Notes: generated from the sequence alone by a model not told the origin. DNA of 64,000 nucleotides from an uncultured Myxococcales bacterium (GCA_903847405.1 CAINDP010000007.1:48969-112968); one strand, 5' to 3'. Positions 10,324-60,583 are shown, counted from the first letter of the stretch. Numbers and translations are program-made.

Positions 10324-10399
10324 CCCCCGTCCCGTGCCCGTAGTTCAATACCAGCCGACCTCCGCGGTGTCAACGCGCCCCCCTTCCTCCCTCCCCACC

Positions 10400-14893: not shown

Positions 14894-14963
14894 CGGAGTC
14901 CCTCCGTTCGCGAGGCCGAGGATCTGGTTCTCACGGTTCCTGTTCATCGCCATCACCTCCGCC

Positions 14964-17900
14964 TCAGATCTTCATCTTGCTGAAGACCTCGTAGACGCCC
15001 CGCATCATGTCGAGGACTTCGACGATGTTGCGGAGTTCCACCTCGGCGGCGGCCTTGTCGGCGCCGGTCGCGGCCTCCCACAGAGCCTTCTGGGCATTGG
15101 CCTTTTCGACCAGCACCACGTTCGGCGAGTACCAGTCCGCGGTGTAGGTCGGTGCCCACACGACGAAGGTCTTGCCGGTGAAGGGATCGCTGAATTCCTG
15201 CGGCACGATCCCGCTGGTGGCCCCGATGTCGTGGCAGTTCCCGTTGCCCTTCAGGCAGACCGTGAACGAATCCAGGAACGACGGGTCGAAGGACGCCGGC
15301 AGGTACGCCATGCCGTAGACCATCATGTACAGCTTCAGGGTGATGTTCTGGATCGACGGCTCGACGCGGGGAGCCGTGCTGGCCGCCACCTCGGTGAGGT
15401 ACGGAGCCGGCACGACCGTTCCGACGATCTCGCCCAGGGTGTCGGTCGCATAGATGCTGCTGTTGCGCGGGTCGAACAGCTTGCGGGGGGCGTAGGTGCC
15501 GCCCTTTTCCGCCGTGCCCGCGAAGATCTGCGGGCTGTCGCTGATGGCGCCGCCGAACAGCTCGGTCAACTGCTTCGGGTACATCGTGTTGAACCCGATC
15601 GAGGTCCCGACGCCGATGTTCAACTGCTCGCCGACGTAGTTGGTCGTGAAGTAGACCGTCGAGTCGGTCAGGGTCATGAGGGCCGCCATCTTCTCCCAGA
15701 ACGAACCGTAGAACTGGGCGTGGTCCCAGAAGAAGTAGCCGGCGCCGTTCCAGAAGGTGGTGTAGGGGTACTTCCCGTCGGACAGCGGGATGTCCAGTTC
15801 GCTGCCCGTCGCGCCGCTGAGGTAGGAGATGTTTTCGAACAGGTTCTTGTCCACGTTCATCTTGTACGAGCCGGGCGCCGGCGAGGCCAGCGTCGAGGCC
15901 AGGATCTCGAAGCCCGTTTCCGACGCGCGCCGCAGGCCGTAGCCCATCAGCTTGGCGTTCGCCCAGACGCCGCGCCAGGAGTAGTTCTTGAGGACGTGGG
16001 AGTACAGCGCGTACAGCATGCCGCAGCCGCGCATGACGTCCATGTAGCGGGTCTGGACGCGGGTCATGTACCCGACCGGGTTGCCGTGGAGGCCGGCGCC
16101 GTAGCGCTCGCGCTTGAAGGCGTCCATCAGGTAGTAGTCGTGCAGCTGGATGCCCATGTTGTGGACGATTTCCAGCGCGTCCACGCCCGTGTCCCACGTG
16201 TAGATGCCGACGTTGCCGGCATACTCGTCACCGCTGAACTTGTAGGGGACCTGGATGTAGGTCCAGTCCAGGTAGGACTGGTAGTAGTTGGTCGTCATGT
16301 TGTGCTCGTCCCGCAGGGACTCGTAGGGCACCGCGGTACGATTGCGGACGCTGTCGCCTTCCGAGCGGTTGGCCTTCTCGCCGATCAGGTTGTTGAAGAA
16401 GTAGAACTGCGAGAAGAAGATGCCGCCGCCCCAGTAGGTCGTGTCCAGGTTGTCCGAGCTCTGGGACTCGCTGTCCTGGCCGTAGCTCTGGTAGTACGTG
16501 TGCACGGCGTTCTGCAGCTTTTCCGTGTCGTTGTACACGTCCACCAGGCCGCCGTAGCCGAACCGGATGGCGGCCTTGTCGTACTTGCCCAGGTCCAGGA
16601 TGTCGCTGTTCCAGCGCTGGCCGTAGTCCATGATGGACGAGACCTGGTAGATGGTCCGGGACTGCTGCGCTTCGCTGTCCGTCAGTTCGGCGCGCGGGAT
16701 GAACGCCATGATCTTGCCGTCGTTCTCGTTCACGACGGGGGTCGTCACGCGGGTCTTGACGCCGTCCTGGCTGCTGTAGCACACGCGGTCGTCGCCGTTG
16801 CAGGTCGAGCCCGCGGGGCAGACGCCGTGGAGGTTGCATCGGGTGATCTCGACGCACTGGCCGGCGATGCAGTCGAAGGTGTCGTACTTCGGGACCGCGG
16901 CGTTGGCGAAGCCGCAGTCCGAGGCCTTCGTGCAGGTTTCGACCTTCTTGGCGCGGCAGAAGTGGCCCTCGCAGTACTGGCCCAGGGCGGCCTCGCACTC
17001 GTCGTTGACCTCGCAGGGTACCGGCTCCTTCACGCGGATGTCGTAGTACTTGTCCGGGTAGTTGAACAGGTCCGTGGACGCCGCGAAGTTGTGCCGCAGG
17101 CCCATCGTGTGGCCGACTTCGTGCTCGACGACGGCCGTGTAGAAGCGCTTCAGGATGCTGCGGGCCAGCATCGGGCCGCTGCTGATGCAGCAGGGGCTGC
17201 CGGTGTCGTTGGCGGGGTCCAGGGCGTCCCACGTCTTTTCGTCGCAGCGCGGGCGGGGGTCGTCGCCGATGCAGGCCCAGGACTGGACCATGCCCAGCAT
17301 GCCTTCGTCGTCGAACTCGCCGTAGCAGTAGGCGTGCTTGCCCAGGTAGATCTGGCGCTCGCGCTCGCGCTTCTGGATGTCCTGGATGTTCGCCCACTCC
17401 AGCGGCGAACCGCTGACGGGGGAGTCGTTGTCCAGGGCGTACTGGACTTCCGAGTTGGTCATCAACTGCTCGTACTGGGTGCCCTTGAGGGCCGCCAGGC
17501 GCTGCTTGCCCAGGGACGGGCTGAGGACCGGAACGGTCGAGGCCAGGGGCGTCCCGATGTTCTTGTCCCGGATGATCTTGAAGATGTCCATCTGGCTGAT
17601 GGGCTTCTGGTTCTGCAGGACCTGCTGCGTCGGATCGAACTGCTGGCGCATGCCGGCAATCGGGTCCAGCGTCTGGGCCGGGGTGCCCTGCGGGGGAGCC
17701 TGCGGGGCCATCATCGCCTGGACTTCGGTCGGGGCGTTCTTGGCCTTGTCCTTGAGGTACGTGCGGATGTTTTCGCCCGTGACGTAGTCCGCCGTGTCCA
17801 GCTTGCCGCTGATCAGGTCGAACAGGTCGCGGTACATGTTGCCGTAGGTCGTCAGCGGGGCGCCATAGATGTTCGCGATGCCCCAGAACACCTGGCCGCT

Positions 17901-20423: not shown

Positions 20424-20734
20424 TGCAACCTCCCACACCCTTGGACTGCAAGGCGGAAGCGGCCTGCTCCCTGCCTGAAAACCGACGTTATATACCTGCA
20501 AACACTCGGCAAGGGAAGCGGCAATTCGCGTCGCGGTGTCCGGTCTCTTCAATCGCAAGAATCGGGCCAATACCGGGGCCCCCGGGCGCCTTCCGGTGCA
20601 CCGAAAGCGGGGAGCGGGGGGCTTCCGGCCGGATTCGGTTGCGGCGTCACGATCCGGACGGCGTGCGGCCGCGGCTTTCCAAGACCGCGCCGGCGTGCTA
20701 TCAGATCAAGGTGTAAGCGCGGAGTTGCCCCACG

Positions 20735-45019: not shown

Positions 45020-45111
45020 GGACGCGTACCGGGGCGTTCCGGCGTTGGCGCGATGTCCCAGGGGGCTGGGCGCGGCGCCGGGGTTCAGATCCCTTCATGT
45101 CGAAGGAAACC

Positions 45112-47760
45112 ATGGAATTCCAGCGAATTCTGGCACTGAAGGGACCCAATCTCTGGTCGCGGCGCACCTGCCTGGAAGCCTGGGTGGACATCGGTCCGCT
45201 GCAGGATTCGCCGTCGAACCTGCTGCCCGGCCTGTACGAGCGTCTGTCCGCCTGGCTGCCGGGCCTGATCGAGCACCGGTGCGGCGTCGGGGAGCGGGGC
45301 GGCTTCCTGATGCGCCTGCGCGACGGGACCTACGCCGCCCACATGCTGGAACACGTGGCCATCGAACTGCAGAACCTGGCGGGCACGCCGGTCGGGTTCG
45401 GCAAGGCCCGGGAAACCTCGCGGCCCGGCCTGTACAAGGTCGCCATCCGGTACCGCAACGAAACAGTGGCGCGGGCCTGTCTGGATGCGGGACGGGACCT
45501 GCTGCTGGCGGCCATCCACGACCATCCGTACGACGTGGCCGACACCGTCGCCCGGCTGCGGGACGTGGCCGACGGCGCCTGCCTGGGCCCCAGCACGGCG
45601 GCCATCGTCGATGCGGCCGAGGCGCGGGGCATCCCGACGCACCGCCTGACCGACGCCAGCCTGGTCCAGTTGGGCCAGGGCGCCCGGCAGCACCGGATCT
45701 GGACGGCCGAAACCGATCGCACCGGCGCGATCGGCGAGTGGATCGCCTCGGACAAGGACATGACCAAGCGCCTGCTGCAGGCGTGCGGCGTGCCGATCCC
45801 CGAGGGCCGCCTGGTGGACGGCGCGGAAGACGCCTGGGTGGCCGCGCAGTCGGTGGGGCTGCCCGTCGTCGTCAAGCCCCGGGACGCCAACCACGGGCGG
45901 GGCGTCTTCACGGACCTGTCGTCCCGCGAGGAAATCGAAAACGCCTACGCCGTCGCGGTGAACGAGGGCAGCGGGGTGATCGTCGAGCGCTTCGTCCGCG
46001 GCAACGAGCACCGCCTGCTGGTCGTCGGCCACAGCATGGTGGCGGCCGCCCGGGGCGAAACCGCGTGGGTCGTCGGGGACGGGCGCTCCACGGTGCGGGA
46101 CCTGGTGACCTCGCAGATCGATTCGGATCCGCGACGCGGGTTGGGCGAGGACTTCCCCCTGAACTTCATCGAACTGGACGACCCGGTGGTGATGCTGGAC
46201 ATGCGGCGCCAGGGGTATTCGGCCGATTCGGTGCCTGCCGACGGCGCCCGGGTGATGGTCCAGCGCAACGGGAACGTGGCGTTCGACGTCACGGACATCG
46301 TGCATCCCCGCGTCGCCGCCAGCGTGGTCCTGGCGGCCCGGGTGGTCGGCCTGGACGTGGCCGGCATCGACATCGTCGCCGAGGACATCACGCGTCCGCT
46401 GGAAGAGCAGGGCGGTGCCGTGGTCGAGGTCAACGCGGGCCCCGGCCTGTCGATGCACCTCAAGCCCGCCGCCGGGACCCCCCGGCCGGTCGGGGAAGCG
46501 ATCGTGGACAGCCTGTTCGCCCCCGGCGAATCGGGCCGGATCCCCCTGGTCTGCGTGACCGGCACCAGCGGCAAGACCGTGGTGACGCGCCTGGTCGCCC
46601 ACCTGCTGCGGGCTGACGGGCGCCACGTGGGCCTGGCGTGCAGCGACGGCCTGTACCTGGATTCCCGGGTGATCGAAACGTGCGATCGCGCGGACGCCCC
46701 GGGCGCACGCAAGGCGCTGATGAACCCCTCCGTCGACGCGGCGGTGCTGGAGGCGGGCGGCCCCAGCATCCTGCGCGAGGGCCTGGGCTTCGACCGGTGC
46801 GACGTGGCGGTAGTGACCAACATCGGGCAGGGCGATCACCTGGGGCTGCACGACATCCAGTCGCCCGACGCCCTGTACTCGGTGAAGCGTTGCGCGGTGG
46901 ACGTGGTGCTGCCGACGGGGACCGCCGTGCTGAATGCCGCCGACCCCCTGGTGGCGGAAATGGCGTCCCTGTCCGCCGGCGCGGTGATCTTCTTCGCGCT
47001 GGACGCGGGCCACCCGATCCTGGGGGCCCATCGGGCTGCGGGCGGGCGTGCCGTGACGGTCCGCGACGGTCGCGTGGTCCTGGCCGAGGGGGACGTGGAA
47101 ACGCCCATCGCGGACGTTTCCGCCTTGCCGTTGGCCCACGGGGGGCGCGTTCCGTTCCAGGTCGAAAACGTGCTGGCGGCGGCGGCGGCGGGCTGGGCGC
47201 TGGGCCTGTCTCCCGCGGCGCTGGGCGCGGGTGTCCTGTCGTTCGACCGCGATGGCCGCGAACTCCCCGGCCGCTTCACCTGCATGGAACATGACGGGGC
47301 GACCGTCGTGATCGACGCGGTCCGCAACCCGGTGTCCGGCGGGGCCCTGGCGACGGCCCTGGATCACTTCCCCGCCAGGCGCAGGACCCTCGTCTGTGTC
47401 CCGGGGATCCTGCGGCGCGACGCCGATCTGGAGGACCTGGGCCGGATCCTGGGCGCCGCCTTCGATCGCATCGTCTTCTGCGGTTCGGAACCGGCGTCGC
47501 AGGAGGAGGACGCCGCTGCGGCAACAAGAATTGTCGATGCCTTGCAACCTTCCACCGGGTCGCTCCGTACACCCCTTCGACGCGGGGCCTTATCGGGCGG
47601 ACGGGCGGTTGAAATCGTGCAGGTTCCGGGGCATCACGAGGCCGTCGAGGCCGCCCTGGACACGCTGGAGGTCGGCGATCTGCTGGTCCTCCAGGCCGAC
47701 GAATATCATCCCGGGTCCACCGTCGATCAGGTCCGCGAATGGATGGTACGGCACGCCTAG
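45112..47760 (+). CDS. cphA: Cyanophycin synthetase
   Basis: ATG at 45112 with RBS GAAGGAAA. N-domain (LKGPNLWSRRT, TRETSRPGLYKV). ATP-grasp (LGPSTAAIV, VVVKPRDANHGRGV, IVERFVRGNEHRLLVV, VEVNAGPGLSMH). Mur-ligase domain (VTGTSGKTVVTRL, GDHLGL). Confidence 0.9.
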   Translation: MEFQRILALKGPNLWSRRTCLEAWVDIGPLQDSPSNLLPGLYERLSAWLPGLIEHRCGVGERGGFLMRLRDGTYAAHMLEHVAIELQNLAGTPVGFGKARETSRPGLYKVAIRYRNETVARACLDAGRDLLLAAIHDHPYDVADTVARLRDVADGACLGPSTAAIVDAAEARGIPTHRLTDASLVQLGQGARQHRIWTAETDRTGAIGEWIASDKDMTKRLLQACGVPIPEGRLVDGAEDAWVAAQSVGLPVVVKPRDANHGRGVFTDLSSREEIENAYAVAVNEGSGVIVERFVRGNEHRLLVVGHSMVAAARGETAWVVGDGRSTVRDLVTSQIDSDPRRGLGEDFPLNFIELDDPVVMLDMRRQGYSADSVPADGARVMVQRNGNVAFDVTDIVHPRVAASVVLAARVVGLDVAGIDIVAEDITRPLEEQGGAVVEVNAGPGLSMHLKPAAGTPRPVGEAIVDSLFAPGESGRIPLVCVTGTSGKTVVTRLVAHLLRADGRHVGLACSDGLYLDSRVIETCDRADAPGARKALMNPSVDAAVLEAGGPSILREGLGFDRCDVAVVTNIGQGDHLGLHDIQSPDALYSVKRCAVDVVLPTGTAVLNAADPLVAEMASLSAGAVIFFALDAGHPILGAHRAAGGRAVTVRDGRVVLAEGDVETPIADVSALPLAHGGRVPFQVENVLAAAAAGWALGLSPAALGAGVLSFDRDGRELPGRFTCMEHDGATVVIDAVRNPVSGGALATALDHFPARRRTLVCVPGILRRDADLEDLGRILGAAFDRIVFCGSEPASQEEDAAAATRIVDALQPSTGSLRTPLRRGALSGGRAVEIVQVPGHHEAVEAALDTLEVGDLLVLQADEYHPGSTVDQVREWMVRHA

Positions 47761-47811
47761 GCGTGTCGCGTGTGTTCGACGCCGATCGTGGCTGGACAGG
47801 GAAAGCCCCCG

Positions 47812-50433
47812 ATGGAAGTCACCCGCATCCGAGCCCTCCGCGGCCCGAACCTGTGGTCGCGCCGGACGGTCCTGGAAGCCATCGTTTCACTGACGGACGA
47901 ACAGCGCCAGATCCTGGCGCGGCCGGGGTTCGAGGAGCGCCTGCGCGAGCGGATGCCCAGCCTGGGCCGTCTGCCTCCCACGGGCGAACCCGGCGCGTTC
48001 AGCCTGGCCCACGTCCTGGAAAGGGTCGCCCTGGGGCTGCAGGCCCAGGCCGGGTGCCCCGTCTTCTTCAGTCGGACCGCGATGACGGTCGAGGAAGGCG
48101 TCTACCAGGTCGTGGTCGAATACGCGGTCGAGGAGGTCGGGCGGCTGGCGCTGGACCAGGCGCAGACCCTCTGCGACGCCGCGCTGGACGGACAGCCCTA
48201 CGACGTCGTCGACGCCCTGCTGCGACTGCGGGCCCTGGACGAGGAGATCCGCCTGGGGCCGTCGACGGGATCGATCGTCCGTGCGGCCCTGTCCCGCGGG
48301 ATTCCCATCCGCCGCCTGAACGAAGGCAGCCTGGTGCAGTTCGGCTGGGGCGTGAAGCAGCACCGGATCCTGGCGGCCGAAACGGACCACACCAGCGCCA
48401 TCGCCGAATCGATCGCCCAGGACAAGGAACTGACCAAGATGCTGCTGGAGGCGGCCGGCGTGCCGGTGCCCCGGGGGCGTCCCGTGACCGATGCCGAGGA
48501 CGCCTGGGAGGCCGCGCAGGAAGTCGGCCTGCCCGTGGTCGTCAAGCCGCGCAACGGCAGCCAGGGACGCGGCGTCGCCGTGAACCTGACCACCCGCGAG
48601 GCGGTCGCCGCCGCATACGTCGCGGCCGAGCAGGTCACCAGCGAGGTCCTCGTCGAGCGGTTCATGCCGGGCCGGGACTTCCGCCTGCTGGTGATCGGCG
48701 GACGCCTGGTCGCAGCGGCCCGTCGCGAGCCCCCTGAGGTTGTCGGGGACGGCGAGCGGACCATCCGCCAGTTGGTGGACGAAGTGAACGCCGATCCGCG
48801 GCGCAGCGACGGCCATGCGACGTCGTTGACCCGGATCCCGCTGGACGCGATCGGCCTGGCCGTCCTGGCCGAACAGAACTGCACTCCGGAAACGGTTCCC
48901 GCCCACGGCGTGCGCGTCCTGCTGCGCGGCAACGCGAACCTCAGCACCGGCGGGACGGCGACGGACGTCACCGACCAGGTCCATCCGGACGTGGCGGCCG
49001 GGGCCGTGGATGCGGCCAAGGTCATCGGCCTGGACATCTGTGGCGTGGACGTCATCTGCCAGGACATCTCCCGTCCCCTGCAGGAGCAGTCCGGCGGCGT
49101 CGTGGAAGTCAACGCGGCTCCGGGGTTCCGCATGCACCTGGATCCTTCCTACGGGAAGGGCCGGCCGGTGGGCGAGGCGGTCGTGTCCACGATGTTTGCC
49201 GAGGGCGACGACGGCCGCATCCCGCTGGTGGCCGTATCCGGCACCAACGGCAAGACGACCACGGTCCGCCTGGTTTCGCACCTGCTGAAGGCCCGGGGCC
49301 AGTGCGTGGGCATGACCTGTTCCGACGGGATCTACGTGGACGCACGGCGCATCGACGACGGGGACTGCAGCGGTCCCAAGAGCGCCCGGGCGATCCTGCT
49401 GCACCCGGACGTCGAGGCGGCCGTGTTCGAAACCGCACGGGGCGGGATCCTGCGCGAGGGCCTCGCCTTCGACAAGTGCGACGTGGCCGTGGTCACGAAC
49501 GTCGGGACCGGCGATCACCTCGGGCTGTCGTTCATCACGACGGTCGATGATCTGGCGGTCATCAAGCGCGTGATCGTCGAAAACGTGGCGCCCACGGGCG
49601 TCGCGGTTCTGAACGCGGCCGATCCCCTGGTGGCGCCCATGGCCGAGGCGTGCCCGGGGACGGTGACGTTCTTCGCCCCGAACGCGGACAACGCGGTCCT
49701 CGCCGCGCATCGCAGTGCCGGTGGACGCGTGGTGTTCGTGGACGGTTCCGACATCGTCGCCGTCGAGGGCGCGACCGAGGAGCGCATCGCCCTGGCGTCC
49801 ATCCCGATCACCCGCGACGGGTGCGTGCGCTTCCAGGTCGAAAACGCGATGGCCTCCATCGGGGCCGCCTGGGCGTTGAAGGTCGACTGGGCCACCATCC
49901 GCACCGGGCTGGGGACCTTCGTCAACGACATCCAGACCGCGCCCGGGCGCTTCAACATCCTGGACTACAGGGCCGCGATGGTGATCGCGGACTACGGCCA
50001 CAATCCGGACGCCATCCTTGCCCTGGTGGACGCGGTCGAGCGCATGCCGTCCCGGCGCCGCATCGCGGTGATCAGCGCCGCCGGCGATCGCCGGGACGTG
50101 GACATCCGGCGCCAGACCGAAATCCTGGGCGAGGCCTTCGACGAAATCATCCTGTACCAGGACGCCTGCCAGCGCGGCCGCGAGGACGGCGAGGTCGTGG
50201 CGCTGCTGCGCGAAGGCCTCAGCCATGCGCATCGCGTGTCGGAGGTGTCCGAGATCCGGGGCGAGTTCCTGGCCATCGAAACGGCCCTGGGCCGCCTGGC
50301 TCCGGGCGACCTGGCCTTGATCCTGATCGATCAGATCGAGGAGTCCCTGGCGCTGCTGGAACGTGCGATCCAGGGTGCGCCGCTGCGCGCCGAAGAGGGC
50401 GCGGCCGGGAACCTGGAAGCCGCGTGCGGATGA
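47812..50433 (+). CDS. cphA: Second cyanophycin synthetase paralog (cphA'-type)
   Basis: ATG at 47812 (MEVTRIRALRGPNLWSRRT). VVVKPRNGSQGRGV, DPRRSDGH, VEVNAAPGFRMH, VSGTNGKTTTVRL, GDHLGL. It starts 52 bp after the first cphA. Confidence 0.9.
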   Translation: MEVTRIRALRGPNLWSRRTVLEAIVSLTDEQRQILARPGFEERLRERMPSLGRLPPTGEPGAFSLAHVLERVALGLQAQAGCPVFFSRTAMTVEEGVYQVVVEYAVEEVGRLALDQAQTLCDAALDGQPYDVVDALLRLRALDEEIRLGPSTGSIVRAALSRGIPIRRLNEGSLVQFGWGVKQHRILAAETDHTSAIAESIAQDKELTKMLLEAAGVPVPRGRPVTDAEDAWEAAQEVGLPVVVKPRNGSQGRGVAVNLTTREAVAAAYVAAEQVTSEVLVERFMPGRDFRLLVIGGRLVAAARREPPEVVGDGERTIRQLVDEVNADPRRSDGHATSLTRIPLDAIGLAVLAEQNCTPETVPAHGVRVLLRGNANLSTGGTATDVTDQVHPDVAAGAVDAAKVIGLDICGVDVICQDISRPLQEQSGGVVEVNAAPGFRMHLDPSYGKGRPVGEAVVSTMFAEGDDGRIPLVAVSGTNGKTTTVRLVSHLLKARGQCVGMTCSDGIYVDARRIDDGDCSGPKSARAILLHPDVEAAVFETARGGILREGLAFDKCDVAVVTNVGTGDHLGLSFITTVDDLAVIKRVIVENVAPTGVAVLNAADPLVAPMAEACPGTVTFFAPNADNAVLAAHRSAGGRVVFVDGSDIVAVEGATEERIALASIPITRDGCVRFQVENAMASIGAAWALKVDWATIRTGLGTFVNDIQTAPGRFNILDYRAAMVIADYGHNPDAILALVDAVERMPSRRRIAVISAAGDRRDVDIRRQTEILGEAFDEIILYQDACQRGREDGEVVALLREGLSHAHRVSEVSEIRGEFLAIETALGRLAPGDLALILIDQIEESLALLERAIQGAPLRAEEGAAGNLEAACG

Positions 50434-53772: not shown

Positions 53773-54675
53773 GTGGACCTGCCGCCATACCATCCGTTCC
53801 GCTCCGCCCGGGCGAAGGCCCGGTATCTTGCCGCGTACGACGTCCGCGCCGCGCGCTGGCCTGTTCCGTGCCGGGACGCGTGGATCGACACCTCGTTCGG
53901 CCGGACCTACGCCCGGGTCAGCGGTTCGGACGACGCCCCGCCGCTGGTCCTGCTGCCCGGGATCGGCGCGACGTCGCTGATGTGGTCGCTGATGGTCGCG
54001 GATCTGTCGCAGCGGCACCGGGTGATCGCGGTGGACAGCATCTTCGACCACGGTCGCAGCGTCTGGTCGCGCCCTCTGCGTTCCGCGGCCGACTACGTGC
54101 GCTGGCTGGACGACCTGTTCGACGGCCTGGGGCTTCCCGGCGGGATCGACCTGGTGGCCGCGTCCTACGGGGGGTGGATGGCCGCCGAATACGCGCTGCA
54201 GCGTCCCGAACGGCTGCGTCGGCTGGTGCTGATCGCCCCGGTGGGCGCGGTCCTGCGCCTGGGACCCGCGTTCATGGCGCGCGCGATGCTGGCCCAGGTG
54301 CCGACGCGGGCCTGCTTCCGGCAGTTCATGGCGTGGCTGGCGGCGGACCTTGCGCGCGGCGACGCGGCCGACCGGGAGATCTTCGAGGAGATGGTGGACG
54401 ACGGGTACACGGCGATGCGCTGGTTCAAGCCCCGGCGGCCGGTCTACCCCCGACGCCTGGCCGACCGCGAGTGGGCCGCCCTGGCCGTGCCCACCCTGTT
54501 CCTGGTGGGCGCAGACGATCGCCTGTTCCCGCCTGCCAGGGCCATCGAGCGCTTGCACCGCGTCGCCCCCGGGATCCGGACCGACGTCGTCCCCGGGGCC
54601 GGCCACGACATGTTCGCGACGAAGCCCGGCGACGTCAGTGCGCGCATCCTGCGGTTCCTGGAACCCTTCCCGTGA
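53773..54675 (+). CDS. Alpha/beta-fold hydrolase (300 aa)
   Basis: GTG at 53773, 6 nt after RBS GGGAGGAAA. LLPGIGATS, nucleophile elbow AASYGGWMA, C-terminal GAGHDM. Confidence 0.75.
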   Translation: MDLPPYHPFRSARAKARYLAAYDVRAARWPVPCRDAWIDTSFGRTYARVSGSDDAPPLVLLPGIGATSLMWSLMVADLSQRHRVIAVDSIFDHGRSVWSRPLRSAADYVRWLDDLFDGLGLPGGIDLVAASYGGWMAAEYALQRPERLRRLVLIAPVGAVLRLGPAFMARAMLAQVPTRACFRQFMAWLAADLARGDAADREIFEEMVDDGYTAMRWFKPRRPVYPRRLADREWAALAVPTLFLVGADDRLFPPARAIERLHRVAPGIRTDVVPGAGHDMFATKPGDVSARILRFLEPFP

Positions 54676-54872
54676 GCCCGCCGGGAAAATGGGGACAGAA
54701 AATGGGGACAGACACCGATTTCCAGGAAATCGGTGTCTGTCCCCATTTTCGGAACGCGCTCGATGACGCGGTTCTGCGCGCTGGGCAGCGCCGACGCATT
54801 GATCCCCTCGGCCCCCCGGTCTACCATGCTGCATCCGGGGCGGGGGTGCCGTCCCGTCGATGGGGGGCAAGA

Positions 54873-55193
54873 ATGCCTGGCGCAGCCCGAATCGGTGACA
54901 AGTCGCAGTGCCCGGCGGACGTCCATGGCTGCCCGGCGTGCGTCCACTCGGTGGTGGGACCGGCGATCATCGGATCGCCGGACGTGTTGATCAACAACCT
55001 GCCCGCCGTGCGGGTCGGGGACATGGGGATCCACGCGGTGTGCTGCGGCCCGAACACCTGGACCGCGGTGATGGGCTCGGCCACGGTGCTGATCAACGGC
55101 AAGCCGGCCCATCGGCAGAACGACATGGACCAGCACTGCGGCGGCGTTGGCAAGATGATCGAGGGCAGTCCGGATGTCCAGATCGGGGGTTGA
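54873..55193 (+). CDS. PAAR-domain protein (106 aa)
   Basis: Three PAAR repeats: MPGAARIGD.., GSPDVLINNLPAVRVGD.., GSATVLINGKPAHRQND.., ending GSPDVQIGG. The stop TGA is immediately followed by the next ATG (TGAATG). Confidence 0.75.
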   Translation: MPGAARIGDKSQCPADVHGCPACVHSVVGPAIIGSPDVLINNLPAVRVGDMGIHAVCCGPNTWTAVMGSATVLINGKPAHRQNDMDQHCGGVGKMIEGSPDVQIGG

Positions 55194-58100
55194 ATGCGCA
55201 AGAACGACTATTTCCCTTACGACATCCAGATTTCCGAGGTCCAGTGGGATCGACTGGGACTGGGCAAGGTCCGGGCCGAACTGCGGGCCCTGGGCGAGGT
55301 CCCGGACGTCGTCTTCCTGCGGCACACCGCAGCGCGGATGAACCGGATGGCCGAGCCGGGCACCCGGCCCGCCCACGCGCGCCTGATGAACCTGTATGCC
55401 CTGCTGACCCGCATCGAGCGGTACGTGGTGGACAATTACGCGGAAACGATGCATCCCGGCATCCTGGGGCGCGCAGAGGACGACGCCCGGCGCCAGACCT
55501 CGGCGGAGGACGTTACGTCCGCCCAGCAGGGCTTCGCCCGCTACTTCCCGCCGGTGACTGTCCTGGACGGGGTGGAGCCGCCCCAGGACTACCTGGCGCC
55601 CCGCGAGGATGCCGCCCGCCGCCGGGACCGCATGGTGCGGGAGTTCCTGCTGCTGCGCGTCGCGGCCGAGAACCCGGCCGTGGACGACTTCCGCGTGCTG
55701 CTGGATGACGGCCGCATGGCCGCGGCGACGCCCTTCCGGAAGGTGGCCCGGGCGCTGGAAACCAGCCTTCGCCGCGCGCCGGCCCTGGGGCCCCTGGGCA
55801 TGACGCTTCCCGACCTGCTGCGGGCGCCGATCCTGGCGTCGCCGCACTCGCTGGAAGGGCAGGTCGAGTACGTCCGCGATCACTGGCAGGGCATCCTGCC
55901 GCCGGAACTGCTGCGGGAAATCCTGACCGCCTTCGAGATGATCCGCGAGGAGGAACGGGAGTGGGGCGGCGGCACCGCCGGCCCGCCCCAGGTCCTGGAG
56001 TTCGGCGGCCGCGACGCCCTGGCCGGGTACCCGGAGGTCGAGGCCTTTTCCCGGGACGCGGACTGGATGTCCAACGTCGTGCTGATCGCGAAGATGGTCT
56101 ATGTGTGGCTGGACCAGTTGACCAAGCGCTACGGCCGTCCCATCCAGCGCCTGGACGAGGTCCCCGATGACGAACTGGACCGCCTGGCCCGGTGGGGGTT
56201 CACGGGCCTGTGGCTGATCGGCCAGTGGGAGCGGTCCCCGGCCTCCCAGCGGATCAAGCAGATCGCGGGCAACCCGGACGCCATCGCTTCCGCCTATTCC
56301 CTGTACGACTACCAGGTCGCCTGGGACCTGGGCGGCGAGGAGGCTCTGGCCAACCTGAAGGAACGCCTGGCCCGTCGCGGGATCCGCCTGGCCAGCGACA
56401 TGGTGCCCAACCACACGGGGATCTACTCGCGCTGGACCGTCGAGCACCCCGAATGGTACGTGCAACTGGACTACCCCCCGTACCCGGCCTACCAGTTCAC
56501 CGGACCGGACCTGTCCTTCGACGGGCGCGTCAGCATGCGCATCGAGGACGGCTACTGGGAAAAGCGCGACGCCGCCGTGGTGTTCCAGCACGTGGACAAC
56601 CAGACCGGGCGGGTGCGGTACATCTACCACGGCAACGACGGCACCAGCACGCCCTGGAACGACACGGCGCAGTTGAACTACCTGCTGCCCGAGGTCCGCG
56701 AGGCGGTCATCCAGACGATCCTGCAGGTGGCCCGCCGCAGCCCGATCATCCGGTTCGACGCGGCCATGACGCTGGCCAAGAAGCACTACCAGCGCCTGTG
56801 GTTCCCCCAGCCCGATCAGCCCAGCGGCGTCCCGTCCCGGGCCGAGCACGGCATGACGCGGGCGGAATTCGACCACGTCTTCCCGATCGAGTTCTGGCGC
56901 CAGGTCGTGGACCGCGTCGCGGCCGAGGCGCCCGACACGCTGCTGCTGGCCGAGGCCTTCTGGCTGATGGAGGGCTACTTCGTCCGGACGCTGGGGATGC
57001 ACCGCGTCTACAACAGCGCGTTCATGAACATGCTGAAGCTGGAGGACAACGCCAACTACCGGCTGACGATCAAGAACGTGCTGGAGTTCAACCCGGAAAT
57101 CCTGAAGCGCTTCGTCAACTTCATGAACAACCCCGACGAGTTGACCGCGGTCGAGCAGTTCGGGAAGGAAGGCAAGTACATCGGCGCCGCGGTGCTGCTG
57201 GTCACGATGCCCGGCCTGCCCATGTTCGGGCACGGCCAGATCGAGGGCTTCCACGAAAAGTACGGCATGGAGTACCGGCGCGCCCGTTGGGACGAGCCGA
57301 TCGACGAGCACCTGGTGCACCAGCACGAGTCCTGCATCTTCCCGCTGATGCGCAAGCGGTACCTGTTCAGCGGGTCCGAAAATTTCGCGTTCTACGACTT
57401 CTTCGCGGGCGACTCGGTCAACGAGGACGTGTTCGCGTATTCGAACCGCGCCGGGGACGAACGAGGCCTGATCCTGTACCACAACCGGTACGCGACCACC
57501 TCGGGCTGGATCCGGACGTCCACCGCGGTTTCCCGGAAGAATGCCGGGGGCGACGCGGCGCTGGTGCAGACGTCGCTGGGCGACGCCCTGGGATTCAATC
57601 CGGACGGGCGCTTCTACTACGCGTTCAAGGACTGGGGCAGCGGCGAGGAGTTCCTGCGCTCGGGCCGGGAACTGGTCGAAAAGGGCCTGTTCGTCGAACT
57701 GGGCGCATACGAATACAAGGCGTTCCTGGACTTCCGGGAGATTCGCGACGACGACTTCGGCACCTGGGGGCGCCTGCACCACCGCCTGGGCGGGGCGCCG
57801 GTCGTCAGCCTGGACGACGAGATCAAGATCGTGCGGTACGAGCCCGTGCACGTCGCCCTGGCCGCGTTCCACGAGGAGGCCCGGGACGCCTTGGCCGCGA
57901 TGTTCGACGCGACGGCCAAGCCTGCCGCCCGTCGGGCCGCCGCCGGCCCCGTGGCTGGGCGGGCGCGGGAACTGCGCGCTGCTCTGGCGGCGCAGAGGGG
58001 TGTTCCGTCCGACGCCGCGGCGGAAGCGGTCGGGGCCGAGGCCTTCACCGCCCGCCTGGACGCCGCCCTGGCGCCGATCGAACCGGCGGGCACCGAGCCG

Positions 58101-58598
58101 GAGCGCCTGCTGCTGCTGACCTGGCTGGCGATCGTCACGTCCACGGGAAGTGCCGAGGACGAGGCGCCTGCCGTCCCGGCGACGTGGCTGGACGAACTGG
58201 GGCTGTCGCGCGCCATCGACCTGGCGGGCGCTCGGGGCGCGCACCTGGCGGGATCGGTGCTGCTGAAGATCCTGCTGGCGAACCGCCGCCTGCTGGGGGA
58301 CTTGACCGGTGCGGACCTGGCGTCCGGGATGGCGCGCCTGTTCGCGGATGCGACGGCGAGGACCGCGATGGGCGTGCATGCCAGCGACGGGGTCGAGTGG
58401 TTCCACCAGGAGAGCTTCGCGGAGGTCGTCCGCTGGCTGTGGCTGGCGACGCGGGTCGATGCGGGTCGCCTGCCCGGTCCCGGGGACGACGTGGCGGTGG
58501 ACGGCATCCTGGAGGCGGCCCGCGTGGCCGGGTTCCGGTCCGATCGCTTCCTGGCGGCGCTGGATGGGGCGGTGGCCCGTCCGGGCGAGGTCGGATAG
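55194..58598 (+). CDS. Large (1134 aa) GH13-family (alpha-amylase-like) enzyme with ~300-aa N-terminal and ~350-aa Ala-rich C-terminal extensions
   Basis: GH13 blocks GFTGLWLIGQWERSP, YSLYDYQVAWDLGGEEALANL, region I DMVPNHTG, region II IIRFDAAMTLAKK, region III LLLAEAFW, region IV FVNFMNNPDE. No signal peptide. Confidence 0.8.
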   Translation: MRKNDYFPYDIQISEVQWDRLGLGKVRAELRALGEVPDVVFLRHTAARMNRMAEPGTRPAHARLMNLYALLTRIERYVVDNYAETMHPGILGRAEDDARRQTSAEDVTSAQQGFARYFPPVTVLDGVEPPQDYLAPREDAARRRDRMVREFLLLRVAAENPAVDDFRVLLDDGRMAAATPFRKVARALETSLRRAPALGPLGMTLPDLLRAPILASPHSLEGQVEYVRDHWQGILPPELLREILTAFEMIREEEREWGGGTAGPPQVLEFGGRDALAGYPEVEAFSRDADWMSNVVLIAKMVYVWLDQLTKRYGRPIQRLDEVPDDELDRLARWGFTGLWLIGQWERSPASQRIKQIAGNPDAIASAYSLYDYQVAWDLGGEEALANLKERLARRGIRLASDMVPNHTGIYSRWTVEHPEWYVQLDYPPYPAYQFTGPDLSFDGRVSMRIEDGYWEKRDAAVVFQHVDNQTGRVRYIYHGNDGTSTPWNDTAQLNYLLPEVREAVIQTILQVARRSPIIRFDAAMTLAKKHYQRLWFPQPDQPSGVPSRAEHGMTRAEFDHVFPIEFWRQVVDRVAAEAPDTLLLAEAFWLMEGYFVRTLGMHRVYNSAFMNMLKLEDNANYRLTIKNVLEFNPEILKRFVNFMNNPDELTAVEQFGKEGKYIGAAVLLVTMPGLPMFGHGQIEGFHEKYGMEYRRARWDEPIDEHLVHQHESCIFPLMRKRYLFSGSENFAFYDFFAGDSVNEDVFAYSNRAGDERGLILYHNRYATTSGWIRTSTAVSRKNAGGDAALVQTSLGDALGFNPDGRFYYAFKDWGSGEEFLRSGRELVEKGLFVELGAYEYKAFLDFREIRDDDFGTWGRLHHRLGGAPVVSLDDEIKIVRYEPVHVALAAFHEEARDALAAMFDATAKPAARRAAAGPVAGRARELRAALAAQRGVPSDAAAEAVGAEAFTARLDAALAPIEPAGTEPERLLLLTWLAIVTSTGSAEDEAPAVPATWLDELGLSRAIDLAGARGAHLAGSVLLKILLANRRLLGDLTGADLASGMARLFADATARTAMGVHASDGVEWFHQESFAEVVRWLWLATRVDAGRLPGPGDDVAVDGILEAARVAGFRSDRFLAALDGAVARPGEVG

Positions 58599-58602
58599 GC
58601 GA

Positions 58603-59805
58603 TCAGCCGACCGCGGTGATGCTGCCCGCGATGCTCCGCGCGACGACGTCCGCCAGCAGGCCCAGGCGCAGCCCGGCGCGGCCCCGCCCGATCCGGGGGG
58701 CCGGGGCGCCGACGTGGCCCTCGTGCCACACTTCCAGCGAACCGACGTGGCGCTTCGACAGGTCCCGCAGGAACTGCCGGATGTCGATCCGCTGTTCGGG
58801 CAGCGTCCCGCCTTCGCCCAGCAGCATGCCGGTGTAGTGGCACCCCCAGGACAGCAGCACGTCGTCCGGCCGCAGGAAGGCCGTCCAGCGGGCCAGGAAG
58901 GCGTCGAAGGGCTCGCCTGCCAGGATGTCGTCCGCCGGGATCTCGGCGTGGAGGTGTGCCGAGGGCGCCATGGCGTGCCGCGGGGCCAGCACGGCCTGGA
59001 AGGTTTCGCCCGTGGCGGGACGGACCGCGACCCAGTGGACCAGTTCGTCGGGGAGGCCCGTGGCGTCCTTCCGGGGCCAGGCGTTCGCCTCCCCGGCGAC
59101 ACAGACGAGGTTCGCAGATCGTTCCACCAGCGTCGCCAGGGCCGGGGGAGGCGGCGGAGGCTGGCTGTTCCGGATCCTTCGGCGGGGCGAATGGAACTGC
59201 TCCGCATGCTGCACCTGGAACTCCACCATCGAGCGGAAGGGGGCCAGCAACCGGAGAGCCCCGGCCGGGTCGTCCTCCAGGACGCCCAGGACGTAGGACA
59301 GTGCCTCGATCGTGGACACGCAGTCCTCGTGGGGCTCGCGGCGGATGCGGTACTCGCTGGCGGCGGGCGGGCGGAACGCATAGCGGGGCAGGGCGGCCAG
59401 CCGGGGGTTGCGGTGGACCAGCTTGGCGGCCTGGGACCACGTGCCGTCCAGCACCACCAGGGTCACGGGACCTTTCGGCGGCGTGCGCAGGATGTCCGGC
59501 GCGTCGGGGCCGGGAAACAGCAGCACCGGGGGGCGCGCGGGGTCCGACAGCGTCGCCTGCAGGGCCGCGACGTCGTCCCATTCGATGCCGACGTGCAGCT
59601 CCGAGTTGGGCAGGCACAGGTGGGCCATGCGGGCCGTGCCGATGGCGACCCGGACCTCCCGGGGGTGCTGCAGGAACACGACCCGCGTGCGGGTGGGAAC
59701 CGAGGGAAGGTCCGCGCACCAGCACGCCACGGCGGGCCGTCGGCATCGCCGGCAGACCGGGCGATCCTGCGTCGTCCCGCTTTCCTGCAAAACCTTCTGC
59801 GCCAC
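58603..59805 (-). CDS. tapT: DTW-domain tRNA-uridine aminocarboxypropyltransferase (TapT-like) fused to an uncharacterised ~190-aa C-terminal domain
   Basis: GTG at 59805, 5 nt after GGGAGG. N-terminal Cys cluster CRRCRRPAVACWC and DTW motif LVVLDGTWSQAAKL. The extra C-terminal region is ...LVCVAGEANAWPRKDATGLPDELVHWVAV... The ORF-track extension to 60153 was rejected. Confidence 0.7.
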   Translation of the reverse strand: MAQKVLQESGTTQDRPVCRRCRRPAVACWCADLPSVPTRTRVVFLQHPREVRVAIGTARMAHLCLPNSELHVGIEWDDVAALQATLSDPARPPVLLFPGPDAPDILRTPPKGPVTLVVLDGTWSQAAKLVHRNPRLAALPRYAFRPPAASEYRIRREPHEDCVSTIEALSYVLGVLEDDPAGALRLLAPFRSMVEFQVQHAEQFHSPRRRIRNSQPPPPPPALATLVERSANLVCVAGEANAWPRKDATGLPDELVHWVAVRPATGETFQAVLAPRHAMAPSAHLHAEIPADDILAGEPFDAFLARWTAFLRPDDVLLSWGCHYTGMLLGEGGTLPEQRIDIRQFLRDLSKRHVGSLEVWHEGHVGAPAPRIGRGRAGLRLGLLADVVARSIAGSITAVG

Positions 59806-60091
59806 GTCGCCCTCCCTGGCCGGCGGAAGCCTACACGCGCGCCCGGGGGATCTCAAGCACTCGGCCGGCCGTCCGGTGGACCGATCCGCGGGACGGCGAC
59901 GCGTCGATGACGGCGACCCTGCGGAGGTTCCTCGGGAAGTGCGCCCCGGACTGCCCCTGCGCCCCGGCGGCGCTAGAATCGGGATGAACCGCATCGAAAT
60001 GTCCGGCCCCGGGGGAGAAACCCGCCAGGCGCCCGCGGTTCGGCTGTGCGCGGTACCAGGCCGGGCCTCGAGGCCCGACGGGAGGTGCGTC

Positions 60092-60583
60092 ATGGCGATA
60101 TGTCCGAAGCTCAAGAGGTTCCTGGGCGAACGAGGAGTCCGGTACGAGGTCATCGACCACCCGCTTGCCTACGCCGCGTCCGACGTCGCCCGCACCAGCC
60201 ACATCGGGCCACGCATGCTGGTGAAGGCCGTGGTGGTCGACGCCGACGGCAAGCCCTGGATGGTGGCGGTCGCCGCGACCCAGAAGGTCAACCTGCGGAA
60301 GGTGGCCGAGGCGCTGGGAGTGCGCCATGCCCGGCTGGAAAAGGAAAGCGACCTCGCGGTCCTCTTCGGCGATTGCGAGCCGGGCGCCATGCCGCCGTTC
60401 GGGAATCTTTACGGCATGAAGGTGGTCGCAGACCCGGTGCTGTACATGGACCGCGATATCGCCTTCAACGCCGGAGACCACACCACCGTGGTGAAGATGG
60501 CCTTCGAGGACTTCGAGCGCCTGGTCCAGCCCCTGCAGGCGGAGGTCACGGGGGAACTGGACGACGATCTGTACAGCCGCTGA
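60092..60583 (+). CDS. YbaK/ProX-family aminoacyl-tRNA deacylase-like protein
   Basis: ATG at 60092 with RBS GGGAGG. 163 aa. MLVKAVVVDADGKPWMVAVAATQKVNLRKVAEALG is typical of the YbaK/ProX editing domain. Confidence 0.7.
   Translation: MAICPKLKRFLGERGVRYEVIDHPLAYAASDVARTSHIGPRMLVKAVVVDADGKPWMVAVAATQKVNLRKVAEALGVRHARLEKESDLAVLFGDCEPGAMPPFGNLYGMKVVADPVLYMDRDIAFNAGDHTTVVKMAFEDFERLVQPLQAEVTGELDDDLYSR

What the first reader, a model, noticed from the sequence alone, without database searches (positions are those of the whole stretch)
54873..58598. Canonical PAAR protein translationally coupled to a 1134-aa GH13-like enzyme, outside any T6SS locus
The 106-aa ORF has three textbook PAAR repeats (PAARIGD, LPAVRVGD, KPAHRQND, each followed by GSxxVLIN). 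Its TGA stop abuts the ATG (TGAATG) of a large cytoplasmic-type protein. That protein's central domain carries all four GH13 conserved regions (DMVPNHTG, IIRFDAA, LLLAEAFW, FVNFMNNPDE), flanked by ~300-aa N-terminal and ~350-aa Ala-rich C-terminal extensions. PAAR proteins normally cap VgrG spikes and are followed by toxin effectors. No Hcp, VgrG, TssBC or other secretion genes are in this 64-kb window. An alpha-glucan-active 'effector', or a non-T6SS use of a PAAR fold next to a glucan enzyme, has not been described as far as I know. The neighbours are storage and starvation genes (cphA x2, cstA). The big protein may therefore be a housekeeping alpha-glucan enzyme (TreY/GlgE-like) with the PAAR gene being a curious partner.
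Basis: partly seen in the sequence, partly recalled or inferred. Interest (0 to 1): 0.75.

Follow-up and report, generated by a model that had tools for sequence, protein, structure and literature searches.

The report
Orphan PAAR gene beside glycogen-type enzyme
A real PAAR spike-tip gene sits directly in front of a large, widespread alpha-glucan (glycogen-type) enzyme gene, but the pairing exists only in this species and its sister, so it looks like a lineage-specific gene insertion and not a new toxin-delivery pair.

Summary
Window 54873-55193 encodes a genuine 106-aa PAAR protein: Pfam 69 bits, AF2 pLDDT 92.5, best fold matches PAAR structures 4jiw and 4jiv. Its TGA abuts the ATG of a 1134-aa divergent GH13 protein with an invariant Asp/Glu/Asp triad. 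No T6SS or CIS gene lies in the 64 kb.

The effector reading is not supported. The large protein belongs to a very large, full-length-conserved family (about 8000 clusters, at least 598 species genomes). In Chloroflexi it sits in GlgA-GlgC-MalQ-GH57 glycogen clusters. None of 81 other loci has a PAAR within 8 kb. The pair is kept only in the sister species (GH 81%, PAAR 87% identity), there with a 36-nt spacer. Relatives at 67% and 62% have a metallophosphatase or nothing in that slot.

The PAAR belongs to a Cys/His-rich 106-aa subfamily that elsewhere lies next to VgrG, DUF2169, TssBC and an uncharacterised 277-aa partner. It is under purifying selection (dN/dS 0.12-0.18).

One curiosity remains. 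Its closest PAAR relatives, in Myxococcota MAGs, sit in operons with DUF4912 and a GH57 branching enzyme.

Verdict: an orphan PAAR inserted upstream of a housekeeping alpha-glucan enzyme. Interest is low to moderate.

The parts
54702..54746 (.). Perfect 20-bp-stem hairpin between the alpha/beta-hydrolase gene and the PAAR gene. It is a bidirectional terminator-like element that marks the 5' boundary of the PAAR/GH13-like transcription unit.
   Evidence: Terminator scan. Both arms are unique in the window, with 0 matches expected by chance.
54862..54867 (+). GGGGGG Shine-Dalgarno-like run 5 nt upstream of the PAAR ATG.
   Evidence: Read directly from the sequence.
54873..55193 (+). Orphan PAAR gene (106 aa), a spike-tip protein of a Cys/His-rich 106-aa subfamily.
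   Evidence: Pfam PAAR_motif 69.1 bits. AF2 pLDDT 92.5. Foldseek top hits are 4jiw_D and 4jiv_D. Profile hit to SalCis10 9rce_c at E = 9e-14. dN/dS 0.12-0.18 against the sister species.
55185..55189 (+). GGGGG Shine-Dalgarno-like run inside the last PAAR codons, 4 nt upstream of the GH13-like ATG. It would allow independent or coupled translation initiation.
   Evidence: Read directly from the sequence. The sister species has a 36-38 nt spacer here instead.
55194..58598 (+). 1134-aa divergent GH13 (alpha-amylase family) protein. It has an N-terminal helical domain (about residues 1-250), a catalytic region (about 300-700), a beta-sandwich (about 730-850) and a C-terminal helical domain (about 857-1125). 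No signal peptide is evident.
   Evidence: Pfam Alpha-amylase 32.5 bits. 7998 homologous clusters, aligned over the full length. Invariant catalytic residues. AF2 secondary structure. Foldseek top hits are all GH13 enzymes. Glycogen-cluster context in other phyla.

Best explanation
These are two unrelated, individually ordinary genes placed side by side by a lineage-specific insertion.

The 106-aa ORF is a functional PAAR cone protein. It belongs to a subfamily that caps VgrG or VgrG-related spikes of contractile injection machinery. In other genomes that subfamily lies beside VgrG, a DUF2169 adaptor, TssB/C and an uncharacterised 277-aa partner ('c1').

The 1134-aa protein is a cytoplasmic alpha-glucan (glycogen-type) enzyme. 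It belongs to a very widespread, uncharacterised GH13-like family and keeps the same architecture whether or not a PAAR gene is nearby.

In the common ancestor of this species and its sister, a PAAR gene of the orphan (VgrG-distant) clade landed without c1 in a variable slot. That slot lies between the alpha/beta-hydrolase terminator and the GH13-like gene. Since then the PAAR gene has been co-transcribed with the enzyme gene. The stop/start abutment arose later, by loss of a 36-nt spacer.

Shown: the identity of both proteins, the distribution of the pairing, selection on the PAAR, and the contexts of the homologues.

Inferred: that the PAAR serves a spike encoded elsewhere in the genome, that the enzyme acts on storage glucan, and that co-transcription merely ties PAAR expression to the storage/starvation gene block.
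For: PAAR identity.

The subfamily is linked to spike genes. One locus reads VgrG (TIGR03361, 675 bits)-PAAR-c1-DUF2169. Another reads PAAR-c1-DUF2169...VgrG-VipA/VipB. A third is a c1-short spike-PAAR module. Phage_base_V/VgrG genes lie within the fetched flank (up to 10 kb) in 24 of 85 loci, and c1 in 35 of 85.

The enzyme is housekeeping. It has 7998 homologous clusters at 99% coverage and at least 598 matching stretches in the one-genome-per-species collection. It sits in GlgA, GlgC, GH77 and GH57 clusters in Chloroflexi. No PAAR is found in 81 loci within +-8 kb, by phmmer and by a subfamily HMM.

The slot is variable. The sister species has abhydrolase-PAAR-36 nt-GH. The 67% relative has abhydrolase-Metallophos-GH. 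The 62% relative has cphA-cphA-GH.

The PAAR is selected and was inherited together with the enzyme gene. dN/dS is 0.12-0.18. Its dS of 0.50-0.55 matches the 0.52 of the GH gene, and its GC3 of 0.88 is close to 0.90-0.92 for the neighbours.

No adaptor, immunity, VgrG or T6SS gene is present in 64 kb.
Against: The closest PAAR relatives (75-82% identity) sit in tight operons with DUF4912 and a GH57 branching enzyme in Myxococcota MAGs. Those operons lie beside a MalK-type ABC transporter and a Glucodextran_C gene. The window is therefore a second juxtaposition of this PAAR clade with an alpha-glucan enzyme, which chance insertion does not predict.

The PAAR is maintained by selection although its usual partner c1 and any VgrG are absent from the 64 kb.

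Whether the genome has any T6SS or CIS could not be checked.
Confidence: 0.62

Rival explanations
1. The orphan PAAR clade has a function tied to alpha-glucan metabolism or its regulation. It might act as a metal-binding partner, scaffold or signalling component working with c1, a small histidine kinase, DUF4912/GH57 and, here, the GH13-like enzyme, and not as a spike tip.
For: In the NJ tree the window PAAR nests inside a clade whose members lie in c1-PAAR-[HisKA/HATPase]-DUF4912-GH57 BE operons, with 3-4 nt gaps or overlaps. This holds across four groups whose branching enzymes are only 71-75% identical. No VgrG lies within 7 kb in that clade. The window pairs the same clade with a different alpha-glucan enzyme family. 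The PAAR is under purifying selection. The subfamily carries extra invariant Cys/His residues.
Against: All GH57-linked loci share one synteny block, so they are probably a single ancestral event in one lineage. In several loci unrelated genes are inserted between the PAAR and DUF4912/GH57 (a histidine kinase, radical SAM genes, and an opposite-strand gene). Other members of the same clade have no glucan genes nearby. PAARs 70-76% identical, with the same invariant residues, sit next to bona fide VgrG, DUF2169 and TssBC. Neither enzyme family generally carries a PAAR.
Confidence: 0.15
2. The GH13-like protein is a cargo effector loaded on the PAAR-tipped spike and delivered into target cells. 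This follows the usual rule that the gene downstream of an orphan PAAR encodes its effector.
For: The enzyme gene lies immediately downstream, on the same strand, with the stop abutting the start. The adjacency is retained in the sister species. From general knowledge of T6SS, not tested here, orphan PAAR or VgrG genes are often followed by their cargo.
Against: The protein is a full-length orthologue of a housekeeping family found without a PAAR in all 82 PAAR-less relatives examined, that is every relative except the sister species (81 loci scanned, plus the gene table). It has no extra N- or C-terminal domain relative to PAAR-less relatives. It has no Pfam-detectable T6SS targeting domain. 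No adaptor or immunity gene is present, and the next gene is a convergent DTW gene. It occupied the same chromosomal position before the PAAR arrived. The abutment is not conserved: the sister species has a 36-nt spacer. No paper in the searched library describes an alpha-amylase-family cargo effector paired with a PAAR.
Confidence: 0.08
3. The small ORF is a decaying or unexpressed relic of a former spike island.
For: The PAAR is isolated from c1, VgrG and every other partner gene.
Against: The reading frame is intact and all subfamily-invariant residues are present. dN/dS is 0.12-0.18 over a dS of about 0.5. A Shine-Dalgarno-like run precedes the ATG. The gene is retained in the sister species.
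Confidence: 0.05

Closest known systems
Stand-alone T6SS PAAR proteins VCA0105 (Vibrio cholerae, PDB 4jiv) and c1882 (E. coli, PDB 4jiw)
   Same: They are about 95-106 aa proteins made of a PAAR domain only, with three PAAR repeats and the same cone fold. Foldseek gives TMq 0.69-0.73 and TMt 0.78-0.82. The profile hit has E = 1e-6.
   Different: Identity is only 31%. The subfamily here has additional invariant Cys/His residues (HGCPACPH, HAxCCGPN, DQHCGG). It falls below the NCBIfam T6SS_PAAR_dom cut-off, at 36.9 against 124 bits. The window copy has no VgrG or T6SS genes within 64 kb.
SalCis10, the PAAR tip of the extracellular contractile injection system of Salmonella enterica subsp. salamae (PDB 9rce; PMC13266070)
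   Same: It is the best sequence match among solved structures, at E = 9e-14 over the full length. It is a stand-alone tip protein of about 100 aa.
   Different: SalCis10 is encoded inside a complete eCIS cluster. No sheath, tube or baseplate Pfam family ranked among the 25 families shown for 122 further genes lying within 6 kb of PAARs of this subfamily.
Orphan PAAR or VgrG islands with a downstream cargo effector, an arrangement general to T6SS (from knowledge of the field, not tested here)
   Same: An orphan PAAR is followed on the same strand by a large enzyme gene.
   Different: The downstream gene is an orthologue of a ubiquitous glycogen-cluster enzyme. It lacks an adaptor, an immunity gene and a targeting domain, and its family is not linked to PAAR elsewhere.
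GH13 alpha-amylase family enzymes (neopullulanase/TVAII, trehalose synthase TreS, GlgE)
   Same: Conserved regions I-IV carry an Asp/Glu/Asp triad. Pfam Alpha-amylase scores above its cut-off. All top Foldseek hits are GH13 enzymes.
   Different: Sequence matches to solved structures are marginal, at E = 1e-4 or worse. The region IV His is replaced by an invariant Pro (N646-P647-D648). The protein has an extra ~300-aa N-terminal helical domain and a ~270-aa C-terminal helical domain. It fails the TreY, TreS and MalA equivalog cut-offs by a wide margin. Its specificity is unknown.

Membership tests
PAAR domain (PF05488), spike-tip proteins of T6SS, CIS and phages | Sequence match to the PAAR_motif model above the curated cut-off | tested here: met
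   69.1 bits against a cut-off of 27, E = 3.8e-19.
PAAR domain (PF05488), spike-tip proteins of T6SS, CIS and phages | Conical beta-structure built from three PAAR repeats | tested here: met
   AF2 pLDDT 92.5 and pTM 0.84. The six best Foldseek PDB hits are all PAAR proteins: 4jiw_D, 4jiv_D, T4 gp5.4, a Klebsiella phage KP1 baseplate chain, a phage P1 baseplate entry and phiKZ gp163.1.
PAAR domain (PF05488), spike-tip proteins of T6SS, CIS and phages | Zn site formed by conserved His/Cys near the cone apex | tested here: inconclusive
   Invariant H18, C23, H54, C57, C58, H80, H88 and C89 exist. They were not mapped onto the canonical site, and metal binding was not tested.
PAAR domain (PF05488), spike-tip proteins of T6SS, CIS and phages | Encoded with, or shown to bind, a VgrG or gp5-type spike | tested here: inconclusive
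   Not met in the window: no VgrG in 64 kb. Met for the subfamily elsewhere (L126, L170, L253). The rest of the genome is not available.
NCBIfam NF033420 T6SS_PAAR_dom (equivalog) | Score above the curated equivalog cut-off | tested here: not met
   36.9 bits against 124. The protein is a PAAR, but not of the proteobacterial T6SS equivalog type.
GH13 / alpha-amylase family | Pfam Alpha-amylase match above the cut-off | tested here: met
   32.5 bits against 22, residues 326-688.
GH13 / alpha-amylase family | Conserved regions I-IV with the catalytic Asp (II), Glu (III) and Asp (IV) | tested here: met
   D522, E587 and D648, plus D402, N406, H407 and R520, are invariant in 23 sequences. The region IV His is replaced by Pro.
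GH13 / alpha-amylase family | (beta/alpha)8 catalytic barrel | tested here: inconclusive
   The AF2 core has pLDDT below 50 over much of residues 340-700. Foldseek hits are all GH13 but with TM of about 0.2.
   TreY scores 18.1 against 498.65 bits and treS_nterm 16 against 678. GlgE appears only as a remote fold hit.
T6SS cargo effector of a PAAR | Linkage of the effector family to PAAR, VgrG or adaptor genes across genomes | tested here: not met
   No PAAR lies within 8 kb in 81 homologous loci. Their recurrent neighbours are glycogen genes, or a TPR protein in Geobacteraceae.
T6SS cargo effector of a PAAR | Adaptor, chaperone or immunity gene, or a targeting domain (MIX, FIX, Rhs, prePAAR) | tested here: not met
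   The only Pfam hit is Alpha-amylase. The flanking genes are an alpha/beta hydrolase and a convergent DTW gene.
T6SS cargo effector of a PAAR | T6SS-dependent secretion | not testable with these tools
   This needs an experiment.

The most novel reading that the evidence does not exclude
A clade of stand-alone PAAR proteins, found in Myxococcota-type uncultured bacteria, has left the injection machinery. It now works inside the cell with alpha-glucan (glycogen) enzymes: GH57 branching enzyme plus DUF4912 in most members, and the GH13-like enzyme here. It might act as a metal-binding scaffold or as a regulatory partner together with c1 and a small histidine kinase.
Probability: 0.1. Interest if true: 0.8.

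Novelty: new member of a known kind. Interest (0 to 1): 0.3.

Why it matters
If the parsimonious reading holds, the case is a caution. A gene directly downstream of an orphan PAAR, even one abutting its stop codon, is not necessarily a T6SS effector, and guilt-by-association effector mining would mis-call a housekeeping glycogen enzyme here.

Three by-products may be more useful than the pair itself:
- A very conserved 106-aa Cys/His-rich PAAR subfamily with an obligate-looking, unannotated 277-aa partner (c1).
- Small c1-short spike-PAAR modules that lie far from any sheath or tube genes.
- A very large, structurally unsolved ~1150-aa GH13-like family embedded in glycogen clusters, with an unusual region IV.

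The repeated placement of the orphan PAAR clade in alpha-glucan loci is unexplained and cheap to test.

Tried and rejected
Exact-sequence look-ups of the window's own large protein failed, although a 100% identical cluster exists. The rest of the source genome could therefore not be inspected for T6SS genes.

I tested whether a PAAR-Metallophos effector cassette had been inserted and then differentially lost. A Metallophos gene fills the slot in L001 and another follows a PAAR in L139. The idea is rejected, because the two Metallophos proteins share only the GNHD motif.

Phage or prophage origin of the PAAR is rejected. The best relative in the viral contig collection is 44% identical, against at least 65% within the subfamily.

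I looked for a complete eCIS or T6SS cluster around subfamily members. A Pfam tally of 122 further neighbouring genes showed no sheath, tube or baseplate family among the 25 families listed. Only L170 shows VipA/VipB.

An AF2 model of the 1134-aa protein built from 23 sequences gave a poor catalytic core. The GH13 subfamily and the N-terminal domain fold could not be assigned.

Literature searches for PAAR with glycogen, for DUF4912, and for PAAR with alpha-amylase effectors returned nothing relevant.

Taxonomic placement from CoaBC gave only a weak hint of Myxococcota, from a named cluster at 53% identity.

The sigma-70 promoter scan found nothing in 54400-58900. This is uninformative for a 69% GC organism.
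Full report
**Observation**

The region reads as described. ORF 54873-55193 (+) encodes a 106-aa protein, MPGAARIGD...SPDVQIGG. It matches Pfam PAAR_motif at 69.1 bits against a cut-off of 27. Its TGA (55191-55193) directly abuts the ATG of a 1134-aa ORF at 55194-58598.

The large ORF matches Pfam Alpha-amylase at 32.5 bits against a cut-off of 22. It contains all four quoted motifs. In an alignment of 23 homologues, D402, N406 and H407 (region I), R520 and D522 (II), E587 (III) and N646-P647-D648 (IV) are invariant. The catalytic triad is therefore intact, but the near-universal His of region IV is replaced by Pro.

One small correction: the first repeat is PGAARIGD, not a literal PAAR.

A perfect 20-bp-stem hairpin at 54702-54746 separates the upstream alpha/beta-hydrolase gene from the PAAR gene. 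It is unique in the window. The PAAR and the enzyme genes therefore form their own unit. Both genes have G-rich Shine-Dalgarno-like runs.

The 64-kb window holds two cphA genes, cstA, an ABC exporter, hydrolases, DTW, CoaBC, a PBP and other genes. No Hcp, VgrG, TssBC, sheath, tube or baseplate family was found. HMMs of the PAAR subfamily's usual partners found nothing either.

**The large protein**

It is a member of a very large family that is conserved over its full length. 7998 clusters at 90% identity passed E <= 1e-5, and the listed hits are 1118-1195 aa long with 95-100% coverage. They come from Geobacteraceae and many other lineages.

A scan of one genome per species found at least 598 matching stretches in Geobacter, Chloroflexota, Hydrogenedentota, Zixibacteria, Nitrospirota and others.

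I called and clustered the genes in 81 of these loci and annotated the recurrent neighbours:
- In Chloroflexi the gene sits with a GH57/DUF3536 protein, GlgA (GT5), GlgC and MalQ (GH77).
- In Geobacteraceae a TPR protein precedes it.

This is a cytoplasmic glycogen/alpha-glucan context. The N-terminus shows no signal peptide.

Sequence searches against the PDB give only marginal alpha-amylase hits, at E = 1e-4 or worse. The TreY, TreS and MalA equivalog models are missed by hundreds of bits.

An AF2 model is confident for an N-terminal helical domain (1-250) and a C-terminal beta-sandwich plus helical domain (730-1125). It is poor in the catalytic core. Its Foldseek hits are all GH13 enzymes, but with TM of about 0.2.

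The family is GH13-like, uncharacterised and structurally unsolved. It is not a standard TreY, GlgE or amylosucrase.

**Is the pairing conserved?**

The window PAAR (phmmer) and a subfamily HMM were searched against six-frame ORFs of the 81 loci (+-8 kb). No hit was better than E = 0.27, while the window positive control scored E = 1e-61 or better.

Contexts of the nearest relatives, in order of decreasing GH identity:

| Relative | Gene order around the GH13-like gene |
|---|---|
| Sister species (GH 81%, PAAR 87%) | ABC-cphA-cphA-cstA-abhydrolase-PAAR-(36 nt)-GH13-like-DTW-PG_binding/TPR |
| 67% relative (GCA_036844845.1) | cphA-cphA-x-abhydrolase-Metallophos-GH13-like |
| 62% relative | cphA-cphA-GH13-like |

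The enzyme's position next to the cyanophycin synthetase genes is therefore ancestral. The slot upstream of it is variable. The PAAR was acquired once, in the ancestor of two sister species. The TGAATG abutment is a later, window-specific loss of the spacer.

N-termini of PAAR-linked and PAAR-less enzymes are collinear. Nothing has been added that could serve as a loading domain.

The PAAR is not decaying. dN/dS is 0.12-0.18. Its dS of 0.50-0.55 equals that of the enzyme gene (0.52), and its GC3 of 0.88 is close to that of its neighbours.

**The PAAR**

AF2 gives pLDDT 92.5. The best PDB fold matches are the PAAR proteins 4jiw_D and 4jiv_D, T4 gp5.4, and phage baseplate tips. By profile, the best solved relative is SalCis10, the tip of the Salmonella salamae eCIS (E = 9e-14; PMC13266070). 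Tas1, VCA0105 and Tre23 follow.

Homologues form a strikingly uniform 106-aa subfamily. They are 65-87% identical across Myxococcota, Desulfobacterales, Nitrospirae and low-GC lineages. They carry extra invariant Cys/His residues in HGCPACPH, HAxCCGPN, AHR and DQHCGG.

I fetched 84 further loci and clustered their genes. Recurrent neighbours, annotated by Pfam and NCBIfam, are:
- an unannotated, Pro/Ala-rich protein of about 277 aa, 'c1' (35 of 85 loci, usually directly adjacent);
- Phage_base_V/VgrG proteins (24 loci), ranging from 250-aa 'VgrG-related' spikes to a full VgrG (TIGR03361, 675 bits);
- LysM/PG_binding proteins (14 loci);
- a methyltransferase (15 loci);
- DUF2169 (10 loci).

A Desulfobacteraceae contig shows PAAR-92 aa-c1-DUF2169...VgrG-VipA/VipB. 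Another contig carries a bare c1-short spike-PAAR module.

The subfamily is absent from viral contigs, where the best relative is 44% identical. It is therefore a spike-tip PAAR of T6SS or CIS type.

**The unexplained part**

In an NJ tree, the window PAAR and its sister nest inside a clade that is never next to VgrG. In that clade the locus reads as follows, in MAGs labelled Myxococcota:
- minus strand: MalK-type ABC transporter - Glucodextran_C - LTD - ECF sigma;
- plus strand: c1 - PAAR - [small HisKA/HATPase] - DUF4912 - GH57 branching enzyme.

Gaps in the plus-strand operon are 3-4 nt or overlaps. The branching enzymes of the four groups are 71-75% identical.

The window is thus a second juxtaposition of this PAAR clade with an alpha-glucan enzyme, of a different family.

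Several points argue against a functional link:
- The GH57 loci share one synteny block, so they are plausibly a single ancestral event.
- Unrelated genes have been inserted between the PAAR and DUF4912/GH57 in several loci.
- Other members of the clade have no glucan genes nearby.
- PAARs with the same invariant residues serve real VgrG loci.

CoaBC places the organism only vaguely. The nearest named cluster, at 53% identity, includes 'Myxococcota bacterium'.

**Mechanism and verdict**

Most likely (about 0.6), an orphan spike-tip PAAR gene was inserted, without its partner c1, into a variable slot upstream of a housekeeping glycogen-type enzyme. It is now co-transcribed with that enzyme. The PAAR presumably caps a VgrG-type spike encoded elsewhere, and the enzyme works in the cytoplasm beside the cyanophycin and starvation genes.

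The rival readings are:
- a functional PAAR/alpha-glucan partnership (about 0.15);
- the enzyme as T6SS cargo (about 0.08);
- a relic ORF (about 0.05).

The decisive data are the rest of the genome, an event-counted co-occurrence survey, and interaction or secretion experiments.

Novelty: a new member of known kinds, namely an orphan PAAR and an uncharacterised GH13-like family member. Interest is low to moderate.

Noticed in passing
L083:8690-9502 (+); also L088:9065-9985, L126:10328-11161, L170:6518-7348, L253:8369-9214: An unannotated, Pro/Ala-rich protein family of about 277 aa ('c1', with motifs NKYHVD, INGPVG, GPPL). It has no Pfam or NCBIfam hit. It is the commonest neighbour of this PAAR subfamily (35 of 85 loci) and is usually directly adjacent to the PAAR. 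It is absent from the window.
   Followed up: partly
L173:351-13055 (also L083, L088, L089, L090, L097): A conserved block in Myxococcota MAGs. On the minus strand lie a MalK-type sugar ABC transporter, Glucodextran_C, LTD and an ECF sigma factor. On the plus strand lie c1, PAAR, an optional small histidine kinase, DUF4912 and a GH57 branching enzyme, with 3-4 nt junctions. A PAAR inside an alpha-glucan locus is unexplained.
   Followed up: partly
window 55194-58598; L041, L047, L031, L066, L076: The ~1150-aa GH13-like family is very large (about 8000 clusters) and has no solved relative. Region IV is an invariant N-P-D instead of N-H-D, and region II has a stretched form, RFDAAMTLAKKH. In Chloroflexi the gene lies in GH57(DUF3536)-GlgA-GlgC-MalQ clusters. 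Its enzymatic specificity is unknown.
   Followed up: partly
L253:8369-10321; L099:2800-4731; L101:952-2917; L116:1198-3158: Three-gene modules of c1, a short (~250-260 aa) VgrG-related spike with only a Phage_base_V domain, and the PAAR. No sheath, tube or baseplate genes lie in the DNA available around them (+-10 kb in L253; the other contigs are shorter).
   Followed up: partly
window 45097-50433, with L001:167-5431 and the contigs: Two tandem cyanophycin synthetase paralogues (887 aa each) are conserved next to the GH13-like gene in all four related genomes. This suggests a storage-polymer island combining cyanophycin and alpha-glucan.
   Followed up: partly
window 54702-54746: A perfect palindromic hairpin with a 20-bp stem between the alpha/beta-hydrolase gene and the PAAR gene. 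It is terminator-like on both strands and unique in the window.
   Followed up: yes
window 10541-14956 (-) and 14964-20570 (-): Two adjacent giant ORFs of 1471 and 1868 aa with unusually low first-position GC (0.56-0.58) and GC3 of 0.94. Their only Pfam hit is a ~30-residue Met-zincin (DUF4953) motif. They lie next to an OmpA/TSP3 protein gene (8900-10348).
   Followed up: no
L139:198-2340: A PAAR of the same subfamily with a C-terminal extension of about 80 aa. It is followed, with overlap, by a 515-aa Metallophos-like protein, which looks like a typical PAAR-effector pair. That protein is not homologous to the Metallophos gene occupying the slot upstream of the GH13-like gene in L001.
   Followed up: yes
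window 58603-60153 (-) and 59408-60583 (+): The DTW ORF (516 aa) and the tRNA_edit ORF (391 aa) overlap by about 750 nt. Both are much longer than their counterparts in relatives (388-403 aa and 163 aa), so the real start codons are probably further downstream.
   Followed up: no
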